Assembly (NCBI RefSeq): GCF_009914755.1
Contig: NC_060928.1
DNA from: the human T2T-CHM13v2.0 reference genome, Homo sapiens
Reading direction: 5' to 3' (one strand)
Length of the DNA stretch: 64,000 nt
Shown: positions 10,283-18,521 of the stretch, piece by piece
How the letters are laid out: each line of letters opens with the position of its first letter
Numbering within the stretch: the first letter of the stretch is position 1
Notes under the pieces: generated by a model
Seen by the model: only the letters and a program-made list of their open reading frames with translations
Told to the model about the DNA's origin: nothing
Database searches by the model: none
Program-made: the position numbers and the translations under genes

Positions 10283-12477
10283 TATTCTGCATATAAGCCA
10301 TTTATTATTGTCAGAGATGGACTTTGCAAATATTTTCTCCCAGTCTGTGTTTTTTTTTTTTAATTTTCTTAACGCTGTCTTCTAAAGAGCAGAAGTTTTT
10401 AATTTTGGTGAAGCCCAAGTGGTCAATTAGATTGTGGTTTTTGGTTTTATATCTAAGAACTCATTGCTTAACTCAGGGTAACAAAATTTTTCTCTTACAT
10501 GTTTTATAGAAGTATGAATTCATGTTCTTGTTTCTTTGTTTTTGGCATATCGATATCCAATTCTTCCAGCATCATTCTTTGAAAGTCTATCCTTTCTCCA
10601 TTGAATTGCCTTTGAACTTATGTCCAAAATCAATGAATGGTATATGTGTGGTTATATTTGTGGACTCTCTACTCTGATCAGTTGATTTAGATGTTTATCT
10701 TTTCACCATTATAAGATTATCTTGATTATTGTGCTTTATAATAAACCTTGAAGTAAGGTAACATGGGTCTCCCAAATTTATTTGTTTTTAACTTTGGCTA
10801 TGCTAGTTTCTATATATATTTTAGAATTGCCTTATTGATTTCTACAAAAAATCTTGCTGAAAATTTTTGGGTCGATTGAATCAATAGATTGGTTTGGGGA
10901 TAATTGACATCTTAAAAATATAAGCTTCCATAAACATAGTATATATCTCCATTTATTCAGATCTTTGATTTCTTCCATCCAAGTTTTGTAGTGTTCAGAA
11001 TACAGATCTTGCACATTTAAAAAATATTTCAACCTAAGTATTTAATATTTTTAGATGCTATTGTAAATGATACCTCCCTTGAAATGACATTTTTTAACTG
11101 AAAAACGTTTGTTGCTAGTATATAGAAATATAATTGCTTTGATATACTGATTTTTATATCCTGTATCCTTGCTAACCTCATTTACTAATTCTAGTCGCTT
11201 TTAAAAATAGATTCTTTAGAATTTCCTGTATAGATTATTATGATGTCTGCAAAATGGAGACAGTTTTTTTTCTTTCTAAACTGTATACCTTTTATTTCTT
11301 TTTCTTGTCTTATTTCACTGTCTAGGACTTCAAAGACAATTTTGAATGCAAGTGGTGAGAATAGATATCCTTACCTTGCTTTCCGTTTTAGGGGAAATTA
11401 TTCAGTCACCCACTGCTAAATATGATGTTAGATGTAGGGTTTTTGTGGATTCCCTTTATCAGATTGAGAGTGGTCCTTTCTATTTCTAGCTTGCTGAGAG
11501 TTTTGTTTGTTTTTGTTTTATTATGAATGGACTTTAAATTTAAACAGATGAGATGCCCTCATTTTTCTTCTGTAGTCTGTATATATGGTAAATTACACTG
11601 ACTGATTTTTAAAATGTTAAACTGGTCTTGCATTCCCAGGATAAGATCCTAATGTATTGTCCTTTTTATGTATTGCTGGGTTCATTTTTTTAAATATTCA
11701 GTTGATGAATTTTGCATTTATGTTCATGAGGAATATTGGTTTGTAATTTTCTTGTCATGCAATATCTCTGGTTTTGGTATCAGCATAATGCTGGTATAAA
11801 ATGAGTTGGGAAGCATTTGTTCTTTTTCCATATTCTGAAAAAGTTGCTGTAGAATTGGTATTATTTTTTCCTAAATCTTCTCAGTGATGCCATCTTGGCC
11901 TTGAATTTTCCTTATAGAAAGGTTTTTACCTAAAAATTAAATTTTTTAAATAAGATATAAACGATTAAGATTATCTATGGCTTCTTGAATATACCTTTTA
12001 AGAAACTAGTCTTATAACCCAACTGGTTGAATTTATGGACATAAAGTTGTTCATAATATTCTCTCTTAACCTTTTAAAGTCTGTATGATTTATAGCAATG
12101 TTCCCTTTTTCATTCCTTATGCTGGTATTTGAGTCTTCACTCTTCTTTTTTTTCTTGATCTGGATAAAGGCTTATCACATTTATTTATTTTTAAGGAAAC
12201 TGCTCTTTGTTTTGTTGCCTATCTGTATTGTTTTTCTGTTTTCAGCGTTATTGCTTTCTGCTCCTATTTTTATTTTCTGCTGTCTGCTTATGTTAGGTTT
12301 AGTTTGTTCTTTGTTATACTTTCTTAAGATAAAAGCTGAGATTATCGATTTGAGATCTTTCTTGTTTCTAATTAGGTGTATATTGCTATACATTTCCTTC
12401 TAAGCACTGTTTTCATTACACCTCACAACTTTTCATATACTGTTTGCATTCCATTAAAACTTTTTTCCTTAAAAAAA

Positions 12478-15400
12478 TTTTTTTATTTCCGTAGGTTATT
12501 AGGGAACAGGTGGTGTTTGGTTACATGAGTAAGTTCCTTAGTGGTGATTTGTGAGATTTTGGTGCACCCATCACTTGAGCAGTATGCACTGCACCCTATT
12601 TGTAGTCTTCTATCCCCCACCCTTTCCCCCTGAGTCTCCAAAGTCCACTGTGTCATTCTTATGTCTTTGCATCCTCATAGCTTAGCTCCCACTTTTGAGT
12701 GAGAACATACGATATTTGGTTTTTCCATTCTTGAGTTACTTCACTTAGAATAATAGTCTCCAGTCTCATCCAGGTCACTGCAAATGCCATTAATTCATTC
12801 CTTTTTATGGCTGAGATACATGTACCACAGTATCTTTATCCATTCGTTGATTGATGGGCATTTGAGTTGGTTCCACGTTTTTGCAATTCCAAATTATGCT
12901 GCTATAAACATGTATGTGCAAGTATCTTCTTCATATAATGACTTCTTTTCCTCTGTGTAGATACCCAGGAGTGGAATTGCTCGATCAAATGGTAGTTCTA
13001 CTTTTAGTTCTTTAAGGAATCTCCACACTGTTTTGCAATAGTGGCTGTACTAGTTTGCATTCCCACCAGCAGTGTAGAAGTGTTCCCTGTTGACCACATC
13101 CACACCAACATCTATTATTTTTTGATTTTTTGATTATGGCCATTCTTGCAGGAGTAATGTGGTATCACATTGTGGTTTTGATTTGCATTTCCCTGATCAT
13201 TAGTGATGTTGAACATTTTTTCATGTATTTGTTGGCCATTTGTATATCTTCTTTTGAGAACTGTCTATTCACGTCCTTCGCCAATTTTTTTATGGGATTG
13301 TTTATTTTTTTCTTGTTTATTTGTTTGAATTCATTGTATACTCTGGATATTAGTCCTTTGTCAGATGTATAGATTGATATTGTAAAGATTTTTTTCCCAC
13401 TCTGTGGGTTTTCTGTTTACTCTGCTGACTGTTCCTTTTGCCATACAAAAACTCTTTAGTTTAACTAAGTCCCAGCAATTTATCTTTGTTTTTATTGCAT
13501 TTGCTTTTGGGTTCTTGGTCATGAAATCTTTGCCTAAGCCAATGTCTAGAAGGGTTTTTTCAATGTTATCTTCTAAAATTTTTACAGTTTCAGGTTTTAG
13601 ATTTAAGTCCTTAATCCATCTTGAGTTCATTTTTGTATAAGGTGAAGGATGAGGATCCAGTTTCATTTTCTTATATGTGGCTAGCCAGTTATCCCAGCAC
13701 CATTTGTTGAAAAGGGTGTCCTCTCCCCACTTTATGTTTTTGTTTGCTTTGTTGAAGATCAGTTGGCTGTAAGTATTTGGGTTTATTTCTGCCAGTACCA
13801 CGCTGTTTTGGTGTCTGTGGCCAAATAGTATAGTTTGAAATCAGGTAATGTGATGCCTCCAGATTTGTTCTCTTTGCTTAGTCTTGCTTTGGCTATGTGG
13901 GCTCTTTTTGGGTTCCATATGAATTTTAGAATTGTTTTTTTCTAATTCTGTGAAGAATGATGGTGGTATTTTGATGGGAATTGCATTGAATTTGTAGATT
14001 GCTTTTGGCAGTATGGTCATTTTCACAATATTGATTCTACCCTATCCTTGAGCATGGGATGTGTTTCCATTTGTTTATGTCATCTGTGATTTCTTTCAGC
14101 AGTGGTTTTTAGTTTTCCTTGTAGAAGTCTTTCTCCTCCTCGGTTGGGTATATTCCTAAGTTTTGTTTTTTTGTTTTGTTTTGTTTTCATTTTTTTTGGT
14201 TTGTTTGTTTACAGCTATTGTAAAAGGAGTTGAGTTCTTGATTTGATTCTCAGCTTTGTTGCTGTTGGTGTATAGAAGAGCTACTGATTTTTGGACATTA
14301 ATTTTGTATGTGGAAACTTTTCTGAATTCTTTTATCAGTTCTAGGAGCTTTCTGGAGGAGTCTTTAGGGTTTTCTAAATAAATGACCATATCATTAGCAA
14401 ACAGTGACAGTCTGACTTCCTCTTTACCAATTTGGACACCCTTATTTCTTTCTCTTGTCTGATTGCTCTGGCTAGGACTTCCAGTACTCTGTTGAAGAGG
14501 AGTGGGCACCCTTGTCTTGTTCCAGTTCTCAGAAAGAATGCTTTCAACTTTTCCCCATTCAGTATTATGTTGGCTGCAGGTTTGTCATAGATGGCTTTTA
14601 TTATATTGAGGTATGTCCCTTGTATGCCAATTTTGCTGAGAGTTTTAATCACAAAGGGATGCTGGATTTTGTCGAATGCTTTTTCTGCATCTATTGACAT
14701 GACCATGAGATTTTTGTTTTTAATTCTGTTTGTATGGTGTATCACATTTGTTGAATTGCATTTGTTAAACCATCCCTGCATCCCTGGTATGAAACCCACT
14801 TGATCATGGTGAATTATCTTTTTGATATGTTGTTGGATTTGGTTAGCTAGTGTTTTTTTAAGGATTTTAGTATCTATGTTCATCAAGGATATTGGTCTGT
14901 ATTTTTCTTTTTTGGTTATGTCCTTTCCTGGTTTTGGTATCAGGGTGATACTGGGTTCATAGAATGAATGAGGGAGGGTTCCCTCTTTCTCTATCTTGTG
15001 GAATACTGTCAAAAGGGTGGGTACCAATTCTTCGTTGAATGTCTGGTAGAATACTGCTGTCTGGTAGAATTCTTCTGTGAATCCATCTGGTCCTGGACCT
15101 TTTTTGTTCATAATTTTTTAATTACCATGTCAATCTCGCTGCTCGTTATTGGTCTGTTCAGGGTATCTAATTCTTCCTGATTTAAACTAGGAGGATTGTA
15201 TCTTTCCAGGAATTTATCCATCTCTTCTAGGTTTTCTAATTTAGGTACATAAAGATGTTCATAGTAGCCTTGAATGATCTTTTGTATTTCTGTGGTGTCA
15301 GTTGTAATAGCTTCCATTTCATTTCTTATTGAGGTTATTTGAATTTTCTTTCTTCTTTTCTTGGTTAATCTTGCTAATGGTCTATCAGTTTTATTTATCT

Positions 15401-18064
15401 TTTCAAAGAACCAGGTTTTTGTTTCATTTATCTTTTGTATTGTTTGTTTGTTTTAATTTCATTGAGTTCTTCTCTGATCTTGGTAACTTCCTTTCTTCTG
15501 CTGGGTTTGGGCTTAGTTTGTTCTTGTTTCTCTAGTTCCTCGAGGTGTGACCTACATTATCTGTGCTCTTTCAGACTTTTTGATGTATGTGTTTAAGGGC
15601 TATGAACTTTCCTCTTAGCATCACATTTGCTGTGTGCCAGAGGTTTTGATAGGTTGTGTTACTATTCTCGTTCAGTTCAAAGAATTTTTAAATTTCCATC
15701 TTGATTTCATTTCTGACCCAATGATCATTCCAGAGCAGGTTATTTAATTTCCATGTATTTGCATGGCTTTGAAGGTTCCTCTTGGAGATTATTTCCAGTT
15801 TTATTCCACTGTGGTCTGAGAGAGTGCTTGATATAATTTCAGTTTTCTTAAATTTATTGAGGCTCGTTTTGTGGCTTATCATGTGGTCTATCTTGGAGAA
15901 AGTTCCATGCACTGTTGAATGGAATGTATATTCTGTAGTTGTTGGATGGAATGTTCTGAATATATCTGTTACGTCCATTTGTTCCAGGGTATAGTTTAGA
16001 TCCATTGCTTCTTTGTTGACTTTCTGTCTTGATGACCTGTCCAGTGCTGTCAGTGGAGTATTGAAGTCCCCCACTGTTATTGTGTCACTGTCTGTCTCAT
16101 TTCTTAGGTGTATTAGTAATTGTTTTATAAATTTGGGAACTCCAGTGTTAGTTGCATATATATTTAGGATTGTGATATTTTCCTGTTGGACAAGGCTTTT
16201 TATCATTATATAGTGTTCCTTTTTGTCTTTTTAACTGCTGTTGCTTTAAAGTTTGTTTTGTCTGATATAAGAATAGCTATTCCTGCTCACTTTTGGTGTC
16301 CATTTACATGAAATGTCTTTTTCCACCCCTTTACCTTAAGTTTGTGAGAGTCCTTATGTGTTAGGTGAGTCTCTTGAAGGCAGCAGATAGTTGGTTGGTG
16401 AATTCTTATCCATTCTGCAGTTCTGTATCTTTTAGGTGGAGTATTTAGGCCATTTACACTCAGTATTAGTATTGAAATGTGAGGTACCATTCCATTCATT
16501 GTGCTACTTCTTGCCTGTATACCTTGGTTTTGGTTTTTGTTCTTTAAATTCTATTTTTTTGTTTTATAGATCCTGTGAGATTTATGCTTTAAAGAGGTTC
16601 TGTTTTGATGTGTTTCCAGAATTTGTTTCAATATTTAGAGCTCCTTCTAGCAGTTCTTGTAGTGGTGGCTTGGTAGTGACAAATTCTCTCAGTGTTTGTT
16701 TGTCTGGAAAAGACTGTATCTTTTCATCATATATGAAGCTTAGTTTCACTGGATACAAAAATCTTGACTGATCGTTGTTTTGTTTGAGGAGGCTGAAGAT
16801 AGGGCCTCAATCCCTTCTAGCTTGTAGGGTTTCTGCTGAGAAATCCACTGTTAATCTGATAGGTTTTTCTTTATAGGTCATCTGGTGCTTCTGTCTCACA
16901 GCTCTTAAGATTCTTTCCTTCCTCTTAACTTTAGACAACCTGATGACAATGTGGCTAGGTGATGATCTTTTTGCAATGAATTTCTCAGATGTTCTTTGTG
17001 CTTCTTGTGTTTGGATGTCTAGGTCTGTAGCAAGGCTGGAGAAGTTTTCCTCGATTATTCTCCCAAATATGTTTTCCAAACTTTTAGATTTCTCTTCTTC
17101 CTCAGGAACACCAATTATTCTTAGGTTTGGTTGTTTAACATAAGCACAGACTTCTTGGAGGTTTTGTTCATATTTTCTTATTCTTTTCTTTTTTCTTTGT
17201 CTTTGTTGGACTGGGTTAATTTGAAGACCTTGTATTTGAGCTCTGAATTTCTTTCTTCTACTTTTTCAATTTTATTCCTGAGACTTTCCAGAATATTTTG
17301 CATTTCTATAAGTGTACCCATTGTTTCCTGAAGTTTTGATTGGTTTTTCTTCATGCTATCTATTTCCTTGAATATTTTTCCCTTCACTTCTTGTATCATT
17401 TTTTGGATTTCCTTGCATTGGGCTTCACCTTTCTCTGGTGCCTCCCTGATTAGCTTAATAACTAACCTCCTAAATTCTTTTTCAGGTAAATCAGAGAATT
17501 CTTCTTGGTTTGGGTCCATTGCTGGTGAGCTGGTGTGATATTTTGGGAATGTTAAAGAACCTTGTTTTGTCATACTACCAGAGTTGGTTTTCTGGTTCCT
17601 TATCATTTGGGTAGGCTCTGTCAGAGGTAAGGTCTAGGACTGAAGGCCGTTGTTCAGATTCTTTTGTCCCACAGGGTGTTTCCTTGCTGTAGTACTCTCC
17701 ACCTTTTCCTATGGATGTGGCTTCCTAAGAGCTGAGCTGTAGTGATTGTTATCTCTCTTCTGGATCTAGCCACCCAGCAAGTCTACCAGACTCCAGGCTA
17801 ATACTGGCTGTTTTCTGCAGAGTCCTGTGATGTGAACTGTCTATGGGTCTCTCAGCCATGGGTACCAGCACAGTATTAGGGGTGTCTCTTGAGTTCTGCA
17901 GGAGCAATCCACTTCCTTTGGAGGGGTCTGTGGGTCCTCTCAGGTTTCTTGATTTATTCCTGCAGTCCTTCTGGAACAAAAAATTCATGATGCGAGCCTC
18001 CACACACTGCTCTGTCCATCTGAGTTGGAGCTGCAATCTAGTCCTGCCTCCCATCCGCCATGAT
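12478..18064 (-). mobile_element. Near-full-length L1PB (L1PB1-like 3' end, L1PBa-like 5' end), inactive
   Basis: ORF1 pieces 17178-17606 and 16807-17079; ORF2 endonuclease 16287-16499 and 15688-16206; RT 14374-15111 with FADD mutated to FAND; 5' start atcatggcggatgggaggcaggactagattgcagctc; TSD-like aaaa(c/t)ttttttc at 12456-12467 and 18218-18229. Confidence 0.93.
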
Positions 18065-18091
18065 TGTAGCAATTCCATAATCAGAAAATTT

Positions 18092-18214
18092 CATTTCAAA
18101 GCTTCCAGGGGGTCCTGGTGTCTTAGCTGTGGATCTCCCAATACCTGCAGGTCGCAGGGCCACAGAGGCTGGGCTTCTAGGAACAGAGGACACAGAGCAG
18201 TGAAGACGAGACCT
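18092..18214 (-). other. Captured exon 1 (5'UTR plus start ATG) of a ZNF91-family KRAB zinc-finger gene, 5' of the L1PB
   Basis: Minus strand reads aggtctcgtcttcactgctctgtgtcctctgttcctagaagcccagcctctgtggccctgcgacctgcaggtattgggagatccacagctaagacaccaggaccccctggaagctttgaaATG; translation ...TAKTPGPPGSFEM compares with the recalled ZNF91 N-terminus MPGTPGSLEM. Confidence 0.85.
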
Positions 18215-18521
18215 CTCAAAATTTTTTTCTAATTCCCTTGTGACTTCCACTTTGATGACAGGTTATGTACAAGTATATTATTTAATTTGTAAATATTGTG
18301 GGTTTTCCAGATATCTTTCTGTCGTTGATTTCTAGCTTAATTCTATTAAACCAGAACTCTGGCAGGAGAACATACTTTGCATTACTTCAGTTCATTTAAA
18401 TTTGCTAAGATTTATTTTATGGCTCAGAATATGTTATATCTTGTGAATGTTTCATGTGCATGTGAAAAGGGAATGTATATTGTGCTATTGTTGGGTAGAG
18501 TGCTCTATGAATGTCAGTTAG

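What the first reader, a model, noticed from the sequence alone, without database searches (positions are those of the whole stretch)
18065..18229. L1PB carries a captured KRAB-ZNF (ZNF91-family) first exon as an apparent 5' transduction
Seen: about 150 bp of non-L1 DNA lies between the L1PB 5' start (about 18064) and the right TSD-like copy (18218-18229), and the host L1ME resumes only after it, so the segment arrived with the L1. On the L1 sense strand 18214-18092 reads ...gacctgcaggtattgggagatccacagctaagacaccaggaccccctggaagctttgaaATG, translating ...TAKTPGPPGSFEM. Recalled knowledge: ZNF91-family genes have a first exon of this sequence that ends at this ATG just before the splice donor (ZNF91 begins MPGTPGSLEM). 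Similarity stops at that boundary, and about 27 bp of other sequence links it to the L1. Inference: a source L1PB inside intron 1 of a KRAB-ZNF gene was transcribed from the ZNF promoter, exon 1 spliced onto it, and the chimera retrotransposed, like the MAST2 exon in SVA_F1. It is striking because ZNF91 and ZNF93 are known repressors of SVA and L1; if multi-copy, this would be an L1 lineage using a repressor-family promoter. I cannot tell whether it is already described.
Basis: partly seen in the sequence, partly recalled or inferred. Interest (0 to 1): 0.9.

Follow-up and report, generated by a model that had tools for sequence, protein, structure and literature searches.

The report
KRAB zinc-finger first exon fused to L1
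An old, dead, single-copy L1 element on human chromosome 4 carries the first exon of a ZNF91-type KRAB zinc-finger gene at its front end; this kind of exon-L1 fusion is already published, but this gene family turns out to be caught by L1 elements repeatedly.

Summary
On the minus strand, one insertion (window 12473-18217) sits inside an older L1M repeat and is flanked by a ~15-nt target-site duplication. It consists of:
- a 123-nt copy of ZNF91-family exon 1 (18214-18092), ending exactly at ATG, where the genes continue with the GT donor;
- a 27-nt linker (18091-18065);
- a full-length L1PB starting at its normal first base (18064).

New here: the first 20 linker bases come from a conserved segment of intron 1 of the same gene family, 0.6-0.9 kb behind exon 1.

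The exon is not part of the L1PB 5' end: 29 of 29 other full-length copies lack it. The junction is unique in the genome, so there is no amplified lineage. No sequence upstream of the gene's transcription start is carried.

The class is published (Cell Genomics 2026, PMC13174262: 17 mRNA/L1 5' chimeras, one with ZNF681 exon 1). This chr4 locus is not in that table.

At least three further ZNF91-family exon-1/L1 fusions exist (chr6, chr8, chr17), so capture is recurrent.

The mechanism is unresolved. It is either cis-splicing onto an intronic source L1 that is now absent, or template switching onto an aberrantly spliced ZNF transcript.

Verdict: a new member of a known kind, of moderate interest.

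The parts
18218..18232 (-). 5' copy of the target-site duplication (TTAGAAAAAAATTTT on the minus strand).
   Evidence: It matches 12456-12472, and the host L1M repeat is collinear across the insertion.
18215..18217 (-). GAG: three bases of uncertain origin between the TSD and the exon copy. They are either exon sequence with a small deletion or untemplated bases.
   Evidence: Alignment.
18092..18214 (-). Copy of ZNF91-family KRAB-ZNF exon 1 (5' UTR plus start codon ATG at 18094-18092). It lacks about the first 30 nt of the transcribed exon and ends exactly at the exon 1 / intron 1 boundary.
   Evidence: 86-92% identity to 39 loci; genes continue ATG|GTGAGA. (KRAB box in the next exon of a spliced retrocopy). 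(exon motif: 55 hits genome-wide, 38 in the C19/C7 clusters).
18072..18091 (-). First 20 nt of the linker (AAATTTTCTGATTATGGAAT). It derives from a conserved segment of ZNF91-family intron 1, 0.6-0.9 kb downstream of exon 1.
   Evidence: 18/20 ungapped in 2 paralogues and 17/20 in 8 more, all at the same site in gene sense; 0 of 400 shuffles reach 18. A gapped test is weaker: 4 of 80 shuffles reach the observed score. One paralogue (L025) has TAG directly before AAATTT.
18065..18071 (-). Last 7 nt of the linker (TGCTACA), of unassigned origin.
   Evidence: It does not match the continuation of the intron segment. No genome match to the junction other than self.
12473..18064 (-). Full-length but decayed L1PB element. 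Its 5' end is at the family's normal first base (ATCATGGCGGA...). The reading frames are broken. The short A-run (followed by a T-run) lies at about 12473-12488 on the + strand.
   Evidence: all 39 other scored matches start at the same point or a few bases in; 29 loci read. (82-89%, mean 86%, identity to 25 other copies over the first 1.4 kb). (only short ORFs).. The 5' UTR is homologous by eye to the sequence labelled L1PB1 in the published table.
12456..12472 (-). 3' copy of the target-site duplication (TTAAGGAAAAAAGTTTT on the minus strand).

Best explanation
This is a single, old, dead chimeric retrotransposition product. One RNA, or one cDNA, joined three parts: exon 1 of a ZNF91-family KRAB zinc-finger gene, about 20-27 nt from intron 1 of such a gene, and a complete L1PB. 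L1 target-primed reverse transcription inserted it once into an older L1M repeat.

Most likely route:
1. A full-length L1PB lay in sense orientation in intron 1 of an ancestral ZNF91-family gene, about 0.6-0.9 kb behind exon 1.
2. Transcription started at the ZNF promoter.
3. The exon 1 donor (ATG|GT) was spliced to a cryptic acceptor about 27 nt upstream of the L1.
4. The transcript ended at the L1 poly(A) signal.
5. The L1-encoded proteins copied this RNA into chromosome 4.
6. The source allele was later lost or never fixed.

Shown: the composition, the boundaries, a single insertion event, the intronic origin of the linker, and the single-copy state. Inferred: the intronic source L1, the use of the cryptic acceptor, and the loss of the source.

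The copy carries no sequence upstream of the ZNF transcription start and left no descendants. It did not found a lineage.
For: Structure:
- The exon copy ends exactly at the donor.
- The L1 starts at the family's first base.
- A ~15-nt TSD and a collinear host repeat enclose everything.

Same-gene origin of the linker:
- It matches 18/20 or 17/20 at one conserved intron-1 site in 10 paralogues, in gene sense, with 0 of 400 shuffles reaching 18.
- One paralogue has an AG exactly at the required acceptor position (L025).

Analogy:
- The chr6 and chr8 fusions have linkers that begin exactly behind conserved strong acceptors in intron 1: TTTGTCCTTTAG| and tcctgtgatttcag|.
- The published RAP1GDS1/L1PA2 case has an acceptor 15 bp upstream of a still-present intronic source L1 (PMC13174262).
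- A short distance to the nearest upstream acceptor and a complete L1 are what cis-splicing predicts.
Against: - No source was found. Five 10-kb intron-1 stretches hold only antisense L1 pieces.
- 40 of 40 scored copies of the intronic segment are uninterrupted; 19 further candidates were not scored.
- The junction has no second copy.
- The same holds for the chr6 and chr8 linkers: 20 of 20 and 7 of 7 paralogous hits lack an L1 at the linker end. The cis model therefore needs several independently lost source alleles.
- Most paralogues have GA, GG or AC, not AG, directly before the linker start.
- The last 7 linker bases do not match the intron.
- The gapped-alignment control for the linker match is only marginal (4 of 80 shuffles).
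- The chr8 fusion also carries a 175-nt piece at its 3' end whose best match (91-92%) is on chr20, not in a ZNF cluster. This shows that multi-template events happen in this set.
Confidence: 0.5

Rival explanations
1. Trans origin. An ordinary L1PB RNA from an unrelated source was reverse transcribed to its 5' end. The reverse transcriptase then switched template (or the RNAs were ligated beforehand) onto an aberrantly spliced ZNF91-family transcript (exon 1 joined to a cryptic intron-1 exon), about 20 nt behind the splice junction, and copied it to near its 5' end.
For: - No intronic source L1 was found for this locus or for the chr6 and chr8 fusions.
- The linker-L1 junction has no splice signal and sits at the very first base of the L1.
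- Seven unassigned bases lie at the junction, as is typical of template jumps.
- The chr8 fusion combines ZNF-cluster sequence at the 5' end with a chr20-derived piece at the 3' end.
- The authors of PMC13174262 report that 15 of their 17 gene loci lack an intronic L1 and favour RNA recombination in trans.
Against: - It does not explain why the partner is repeatedly a ZNF91-family transcript spliced to a cryptic intron-1 exon.
- It does not explain why the switch point is always within 80 nt of the exon 1 junction (27, 51, 77 nt) rather than anywhere along the abundant canonical mRNA.
- Template-switch chimeras of the U6/L1 type usually carry 5'-truncated L1s (stated in PMC13174262), whereas this L1 is complete.
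Confidence: 0.35
2. Two separate events or a DNA-level capture. Either the L1PB inserted next to an older ZNF exon-1 fragment, or genomic DNA containing exon 1 was moved by duplication.
For: None found. It was considered because the TSD is A/T-rich and the 12-mer alone is only weakly significant.
Against: - The host L1M repeat resumes only after the exon piece, and both flanks are collinear in 3 of 5 other copies of that repeat.
- Similarity to the genes stops exactly at the exon/intron boundary and skips about 0.6-0.9 kb of intron. A genomic DNA copy would not do this.
Confidence: 0.03
3. The exon belongs to a standard or multi-copy L1PB 5' end, that is, an L1 sub-lineage that adopted a KRAB-ZNF promoter.
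For: None for this junction. The only hint is that the same gene family's exon 1 is fused to L1s at other loci.
Against: - 29 of 29 other full-length L1PB 5' ends have unrelated upstream flanks.
- The 34-nt junction with up to 3 mismatches, and the 63-nt junction by BLAST, hit only self.
- The other fusions have different linkers and different L1 families. Ours and the chr3 case share only exon 1, at 84% over 107 nt.
- The chr6 and chr8 junctions are also single-copy.
- The captured piece lacks everything upstream of the transcription start.
Confidence: 0.02

Closest known systems
ZNF681-exon-1/L1 chimeric insertion, hg38 chr3:94441985-94449213 (Supplementary Table 5 of Cell Genom 2026;6(5):101165, PMC13174262). 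In this genome it is C3:97140456 (L073).
   Same: It has a ZNF91-family first exon in sense orientation, then a short stretch partly mapping to ZNF-cluster intron DNA, then a near-complete L1, all within one TSD. It shares with our copy an 18-mer of exon 1 that occurs nowhere else in the genome.
   Different: It is an independent event. The linker differs (about 70 nt). The L1 5' UTR shows no BLAST similarity to ours. The exon copies are only 84% alike. Our chr4 locus is not among the 17 entries of that table.
RAP1GDS1/L1PA2 chimeras (same paper)
   Same: First exons of a host gene are spliced to a cryptic acceptor a few bases (15 bp) upstream of an intronic L1, and the spliced RNA is retrotransposed. 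This is the model proposed here.
   Different: There the source L1 is still present in the intron and produced two offspring. Here no source is found and there is one copy. That L1 had a crippled 5' UTR; ours is complete.
CREM/L1PB1 chimera (same paper)
   Same: It involves the same L1 family, with a host first exon ending at its donor.
   Different: There the exon joins an acceptor inside the L1 at position 89. Here the L1 is complete from base 1 and a piece of host intron lies in between.
SVA_F1 with MAST2 exon 1 (recalled from the literature: Damert 2009, Hancks 2009, Bantysh and Buzdin 2009; not read here)
   Same: A host first exon is spliced onto a retroelement and mobilised with it.
   Different: SVA_F1 amplified into a family of copies sharing one junction. 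This junction is unique.
U6/L1-type template-switch chimeric retrogenes (as described in PMC13174262)
   Same: Another RNA lies in sense orientation at the 5' end of an L1 within one TSD, and the junction has no splice signal.
   Different: Those L1 parts are usually 5'-truncated and the partner is a small RNA. Here the L1 is complete and the partner is a spliced Pol II transcript.

Membership tests
mRNA/LINE-1 5' chimeric insertion (class of PMC13174262) | One TSD flanks both the non-L1 part and the L1. | tested here: met
   A ~15-nt TSD at 18218-18232 and 12456-12472; host repeat collinear in 3 of 5 copies.
mRNA/LINE-1 5' chimeric insertion (class of PMC13174262) | The non-L1 part maps to the first exon(s) of a gene, in sense orientation to the L1. 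| tested here: met
   A KRAB box lies in the next exon of a spliced retrocopy.
mRNA/LINE-1 5' chimeric insertion (class of PMC13174262) | The exon part ends at a splice donor. | tested here: met
   The genes read ATG|GTGAGAGTGCC; ours diverges directly after the ATG. A 2-nt TG microhomology with the intron segment leaves the joint ambiguous by up to 2-3 nt.
mRNA/LINE-1 5' chimeric insertion (class of PMC13174262) | The L1 is near full length with a poly(A) tail, and there is an endonuclease-type target site. | tested here: inconclusive
   The L1 runs from base 1 to its 3' end. The tail is only A7 followed by a T-run. The target reads TT/AGAA if the TSD is taken from AGAAAAAAATTTT; this was judged by eye.
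Amplifying exon-capturing lineage (SVA_F1/MAST2 type) | Several copies share the same exon-element junction. | tested here: not met
   Only self was found for the junction.
Cis-spliced 5' transduction from an intronic source L1 (RAP1GDS1 type) | A source L1 is present in the intron directly behind the linker sequence. | tested here: not met
   0 of 40 scored paralogous segments are interrupted; 19 were not scored. 0 of 5 ten-kb intron stretches hold a sense L1PB 5' end. A lost or unfixed allele cannot be excluded.
Cis-spliced 5' transduction from an intronic source L1 (RAP1GDS1 type) | The linker derives from the same gene's intron and starts behind an AG acceptor. | tested here: inconclusive
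   Intron origin is supported for 20 of the 27 nt. An AG at the exact position is seen in 1 paralogue only (L025).
Standard L1PB 5' end | The sequence is present upstream of ATCATGGCGGA in other full-length copies. | tested here: not met
   0 of 29 copies. The Dfam/Repbase consensus could not be consulted.
Template-switch chimeric retrogene | The junction has no splice signal, may hold untemplated bases, and the partner RNA comes from another locus. | not testable with these tools
   The linker-L1 joint has no splice signal and 7 unassigned bases. This is compatible but not diagnostic.

The most novel reading that the evidence does not exclude
ZNF91-family exon 1 is a recurrent, possibly the most frequent, mRNA partner of L1 5' chimeras in the human genome.

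Besides this locus and the published chr3 case, clear fusions exist at chr6:25.07 Mb, chr8:41.50 Mb and chr17:5.09 Mb, with three probable ones on chrX, chr4:169.3 Mb and chr6:72.7 Mb. They involve at least three different L1 5' UTR types.

About as many retrocopy events carrying this exon are L1 fusions as are ordinary processed pseudogenes.

If this excess is real, and not merely a result of roughly 40-60 paralogues in an L1-rich cluster, it has two consequences. First, L1s that land in, or whose RNAs meet, the first intron of the gene family that represses them are preferentially mobilised from those genes' promoters. Second, it offers a multi-event natural series for deciding between cis-splicing and template switching.
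Probability: 0.35. Interest if true: 0.7.

Novelty: new member of a known kind. Interest (0 to 1): 0.45.

Why it matters
By itself the locus is a fossil. It is one more example of a host first exon fused to a full-length L1, a class catalogued in 2026, and it neither amplified nor captured an upstream promoter.

Its value is as part of a series. The same KRAB-ZNF family, whose members are recalled as repressors of L1 and SVA (not tested here), supplied exon 1 to L1s at least five separate times. In three cases the linker can be traced to conserved cryptic exons or segments of intron 1.

This gives a concrete handle on an open question raised in that paper: whether such chimeras arise by cis-splicing of intronic L1s or by recombination between separate RNAs. 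It also suggests that the published census of 17 events is incomplete for multi-copy gene families.

Tried and rejected
- Source L1PB. I fetched the first 10 kb of intron 1 for the 5 best exon matches and found only antisense L1 3' fragments.
- Sibling junctions. The 34-nt pattern with up to 3 mismatches and a 63-nt BLAST query hit only self. At an expected 15-20% divergence an old sibling could escape the pattern search.
- Homology between our linker and the chr3 linker. Only a shared 7-mer was found; 641 of 5000 shuffles score as well. Rejected.
- Our linker against the chr6 cryptic exon. There is a superficial resemblance in the first ~17 nt (extended the alignment by 13 nt). The better and statistically supported match is to a different intron-1 segment.
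- The 3' piece of the chr8 fusion as a marker of a ZNF-intron source. Its best match is on chr20 and no L1PA lies beside it there. It did not identify a cis source.
- Naming the closest paralogue. The best exon match is C19:20038704 (92%), but differences among paralogues (86-92% over 123 nt) are too small, and the genome carries no gene names in these tools. It is 88.6% identical to our copy and is not the closest.
- No other primate genome, Dfam/Repbase consensus or RepeatMasker annotation was available. Subfamily names and dating are therefore approximate.

Full report
WHAT IS THERE

Read on the minus strand, the region has this order:
- host repeat;
- TTAGAAAAAAATTTT (18232-18218);
- GAG (18217-18215);
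- a 123-nt segment (18214-18092) ending in ATG;
- 27 nt, AAATTTTCTGATTATGGAATTGCTACA (18091-18065);
- an L1 from ATCATGGCGGATGGG (18064) down to ...CCTACGGAAATAAAAAAA, followed by a short T-run (about 12473);
- TTAAGGAAAAAAGTTTT (12472-12456);
- host repeat.

The flanks belong to one old L1M-type repeat. A 233-nt flank query found 476 candidates at about 70% identity. In 3 of 5 copies fetched, the two flanks are adjacent and overlap by about the length of the duplication; the other 2 gave no match to the second flank. The whole 5.7-kb block is therefore one insertion with a ~15-nt target-site duplication. The L1 reading frames are broken.

THE NON-L1 SEGMENT IS A ZNF91-FAMILY FIRST EXON

A 200-nt query across the region hit 39 other places (262 candidates, 40 scored, one of them self). 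Of these, 29 lie on C19:19.9-24.2 Mb, 6 on C7:65.6-66.2 Mb and 4 elsewhere. All cover only 18214-18092, within a few bases, at 86-92% identity.

In the genomic loci the match is followed by GTGAGAGTGCC, so the exon ends ATG|GT. In spliced retrocopies (C9, C12) the ATG runs straight into the next exon. In a C8 retrocopy that next exon is a KRAB box (PF01352, E=1.1e-13).

Gene names cannot be assigned with these tools. The family label rests on three things: the cluster positions, the KRAB hit, and a published table that assigns a sister copy to ZNF681.

Our copy starts about 30 nt downstream of the 5' ends of two other retrocopies (L026, L028). It carries nothing upstream of the transcription start.

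THE L1 IS COMPLETE AND THE EXON IS NOT PART OF ITS FAMILY

A query over the linker and the L1 start found 1115 candidates. In all 39 other scored hits the match begins at query position 36-47, that is at the L1 start or a few bases inside it, and none extends into the linker. In the 29 loci read, the upstream flanks are unrelated to each other, often after a few G.

The first 1.4 kb of our L1 is 82-89% (mean 86%) identical to 25 of these copies. That is roughly 7% divergence per lineage, or tens of millions of years. This is a rough inference, consistent with the recalled age of L1PB.

By eye the 5' UTR is homologous to the sequence labelled L1PB1 in the published table, with matching position numbering.

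THE JUNCTION IS UNIQUE

The 34-nt junction with up to 3 mismatches and a 63-nt junction query hit only self.

THE LINKER COMES FROM INTRON 1 OF THE SAME GENE FAMILY

I scanned about 140 kb of fetched ZNF loci on both strands. The 27 best gapped windows for the linker all fall on one conserved site in intron 1, in gene sense, 0.6-0.9 kb behind exon 1.

Ungapped, the first 20 nt match 18/20 in two paralogues and 17/20 in eight more. None of 400 shuffles reaches 18. The gapped score is only marginal: 4 of 80 shuffles reach it.

Most paralogues read ...AAAGGTG(A/G)AAATTT... at this site. One (L025) reads ...CCTAG|AAATTTCC, an AG exactly where an acceptor is needed. The last 7 nt (TGCTACA) are unassigned.

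A 160-nt query over this intron segment found 59 candidates. All 40 scored lie in the C19 and C7 zinc-finger clusters, and none is interrupted where an L1 would sit. The first 10 kb of intron 1 of five genes contain only antisense L1 fragments. No source L1 is visible.

WHAT IS ALREADY IN PRINT

I used 'Comparative genomics reveals LINE-1 recombination with diverse RNAs' (Cell Genom 2026;6(5):101165, PMC13174262; preprint 10.1101/2025.02.02.635956). I read passages found by term search, section 24 of the preprint in full, and all three parts of supplementary file mmc5.xlsx, and I searched all four spreadsheets.

The paper describes 17 L1 insertions with mRNA or lncRNA sequence at the 5' end:
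- most carry first exons in sense orientation;
- six end exactly at splice donors;
- most have near-full-length L1s;
- 15 of the gene loci lack an intronic L1.

The authors discuss cis-splicing, trans-splicing, ligation and template switching.

One entry is ZNF681 exon 1 fused to an L1 at hg38 chr3:94441985. 'ZNF' does not occur in the main text of either version. Our chr4 locus is not among the 17.

Three full-text searches listed no paper describing KRAB-ZNF exon capture by L1. I saw only their listings.

The SVA_F1/MAST2 comparison, the roles of ZNF91/ZNF93 as repressors, and the ages of L1PB are recalled, not read here.

THE SAME EXON IS FUSED TO L1 ELSEWHERE

A conserved 22-nt exon motif with up to 2 mismatches gives 55 hits and 0 in the reversed control. 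Of these, 38 lie in the two clusters and 17 outside. The 17 classify as follows.

Clear L1 fusions (4):
- ours;
- C6:25.07 Mb: exon 1, then 77-78 nt, then an L1PA-type element from its first bases, enclosed by a ~15-nt TSD;
- C8:41.50 Mb: exon 1, then 51 nt, then an L1PA-type element, with an 11-nt TSD lying behind an extra 175-nt piece;
- C17:5.09 Mb: exon 1, then the last ~250 nt of an L1PA, 89% identical to the chr8 3' end.

Probable fusions, with weaker L1 similarity behind the exon (3):
- CX:91.94 Mb;
- C4:169.30 Mb;
- C6:72.74 Mb.

Others:
- 7 loci are ordinary processed pseudogenes, representing about 5 events (the two C2 copies and the C22 copy are near-identical duplicates);
- 2 loci are a C10 duplicate pair with an unassigned continuation;
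- 1 locus (C1) is a chance hit.

The published chr3 case has more than 2 mismatches in the motif. I located it with an 18-mer that occurs only there and in our copy. It shares only the exon with ours, at 84% over 107 nt, and the L1 5' UTRs show no BLAST similarity.

The chr6 linker is a conserved intron-1 segment directly behind TTTGTCCTTTAG|, 1-2 kb from exon 1, in at least 15 paralogues. The chr8 linker lies behind tcctgtgatttcag|, 2.4-9.8 kb from exon 1. Neither linker ends at a donor. No paralogue carries an L1 at the linker end: 20 of 20 and 7 of 7 non-self hits stop there. Both junctions are single-copy.

The extra 175-nt piece at the chr8 3' end is an L1M fragment. Its best match is 91-92% on C20:51297195, against at most 83% elsewhere (810 candidates, 40 scored). 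No L1PA lies beside it there.

HOW IT MOST LIKELY AROSE

Two models remain.

Cis model. A sense L1PB in intron 1 was transcribed from the ZNF promoter. Exon 1 was spliced to the nearest usable acceptor just upstream of the L1, and the RNA ended at the L1 poly(A) site and was retrotransposed. This explains four observations:
- the exact donor boundary;
- the same-gene intronic linker;
- the short linkers;
- the complete L1s.

The model needs the source alleles to have been lost in each case. That is plausible for sense full-length L1s in introns of expressed genes, which are recalled to be selected against.

Trans model. The reverse transcriptase jumped from the L1 5' end onto an aberrantly spliced ZNF transcript. 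This explains the missing sources, the unassigned bases and the chr8 three-part structure. It does not explain why the partner and the switch window are so constant.

I put the cis model at about 0.5 and the trans model at about 0.35. The structural reading, one chimeric insertion of exon 1 plus intron-derived linker plus full-length L1PB, I hold at about 0.9.

VERDICT

The kind is known. This locus is an unlisted member. The recurrence within one KRAB-ZNF family is the part worth following up.

Noticed in passing
L028 = G000:C6:25071095-25074233 (exon copy from about C6:25072569) and L087 = C6:25078300-25079800: A second, unlisted fusion: ZNF91-family exon 1, then a 77-78-nt conserved intron-1 cryptic exon, then an L1PA-type element from its first bases. 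It is about 6.5 kb long and flanked by AAAAATTTTGCAAACT / AAAATTTTTCAAACT. The junction is single-copy.
   Followed up: partly
L079 = G000:C8:41498428-41498849 and L088 = C8:41504100-41505600: A third fusion: exon 1, then a 51-nt intron-1 cryptic exon, then an L1PA-type element. Behind the L1 tail lies a 175-nt L1M fragment whose best match (91-92%) is C20:51297195-51297361, followed by an A-run and the TSD AAGTTTGAAGA. This is a three-part chimera from at least two chromosomes.
   Followed up: partly
L086 = G000:C17:5086788-5087209: A partial exon 1 is joined directly at its ATG to the last ~250 nt of an L1PA (89% to the chr8 L1 3' end). It looks like exon 1 spliced into the 3' part of an L1 and then retrocopied.
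   Followed up: partly
L075 (CX:91943909-91944330), L078 (C4:169301097-169301518), L083 (C6:72739570-72739991): Three more off-cluster exon-1 copies whose continuation shows weaker similarity to internal L1 sequence: 73% over 108 nt, 69% over 184 nt, and 82% over 51 nt. In the chrX copy exon 1 is joined to the KRAB-B exon first.
   Followed up: partly
ZNF91-family loci L003-L030 and L063-L067, intron 1: Intron 1 of many paralogues holds at least three conserved segments that appear as linkers in L1 fusions. Two sit directly behind strong polypyrimidine-AG acceptors (TTTGTCCTTTAG| and tcctgtgatttcag|). They look like conserved cryptic or alternative exons of the family.
   Followed up: partly
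L089 = G000:C3:154124850-154125450, and C10:43243695-43243771: Off-cluster copies of the chr6-type intron-1 segment. The chr3 one lies directly behind an Alu. Their origin was not worked out.
   Followed up: no
L084/L085 = G000:C10:80401913-80402334 and C10:81096200-81096621: A duplicated pair carrying a diverged exon-1-like sequence that ends in ATG and continues with unassigned sequence.
   Followed up: no
window 12473-12484: The L1 tail is only seven A followed by a run of T before the TSD. This is unusual for an L1 3' end and may be decay of an A/T-rich tail.
   Followed up: no
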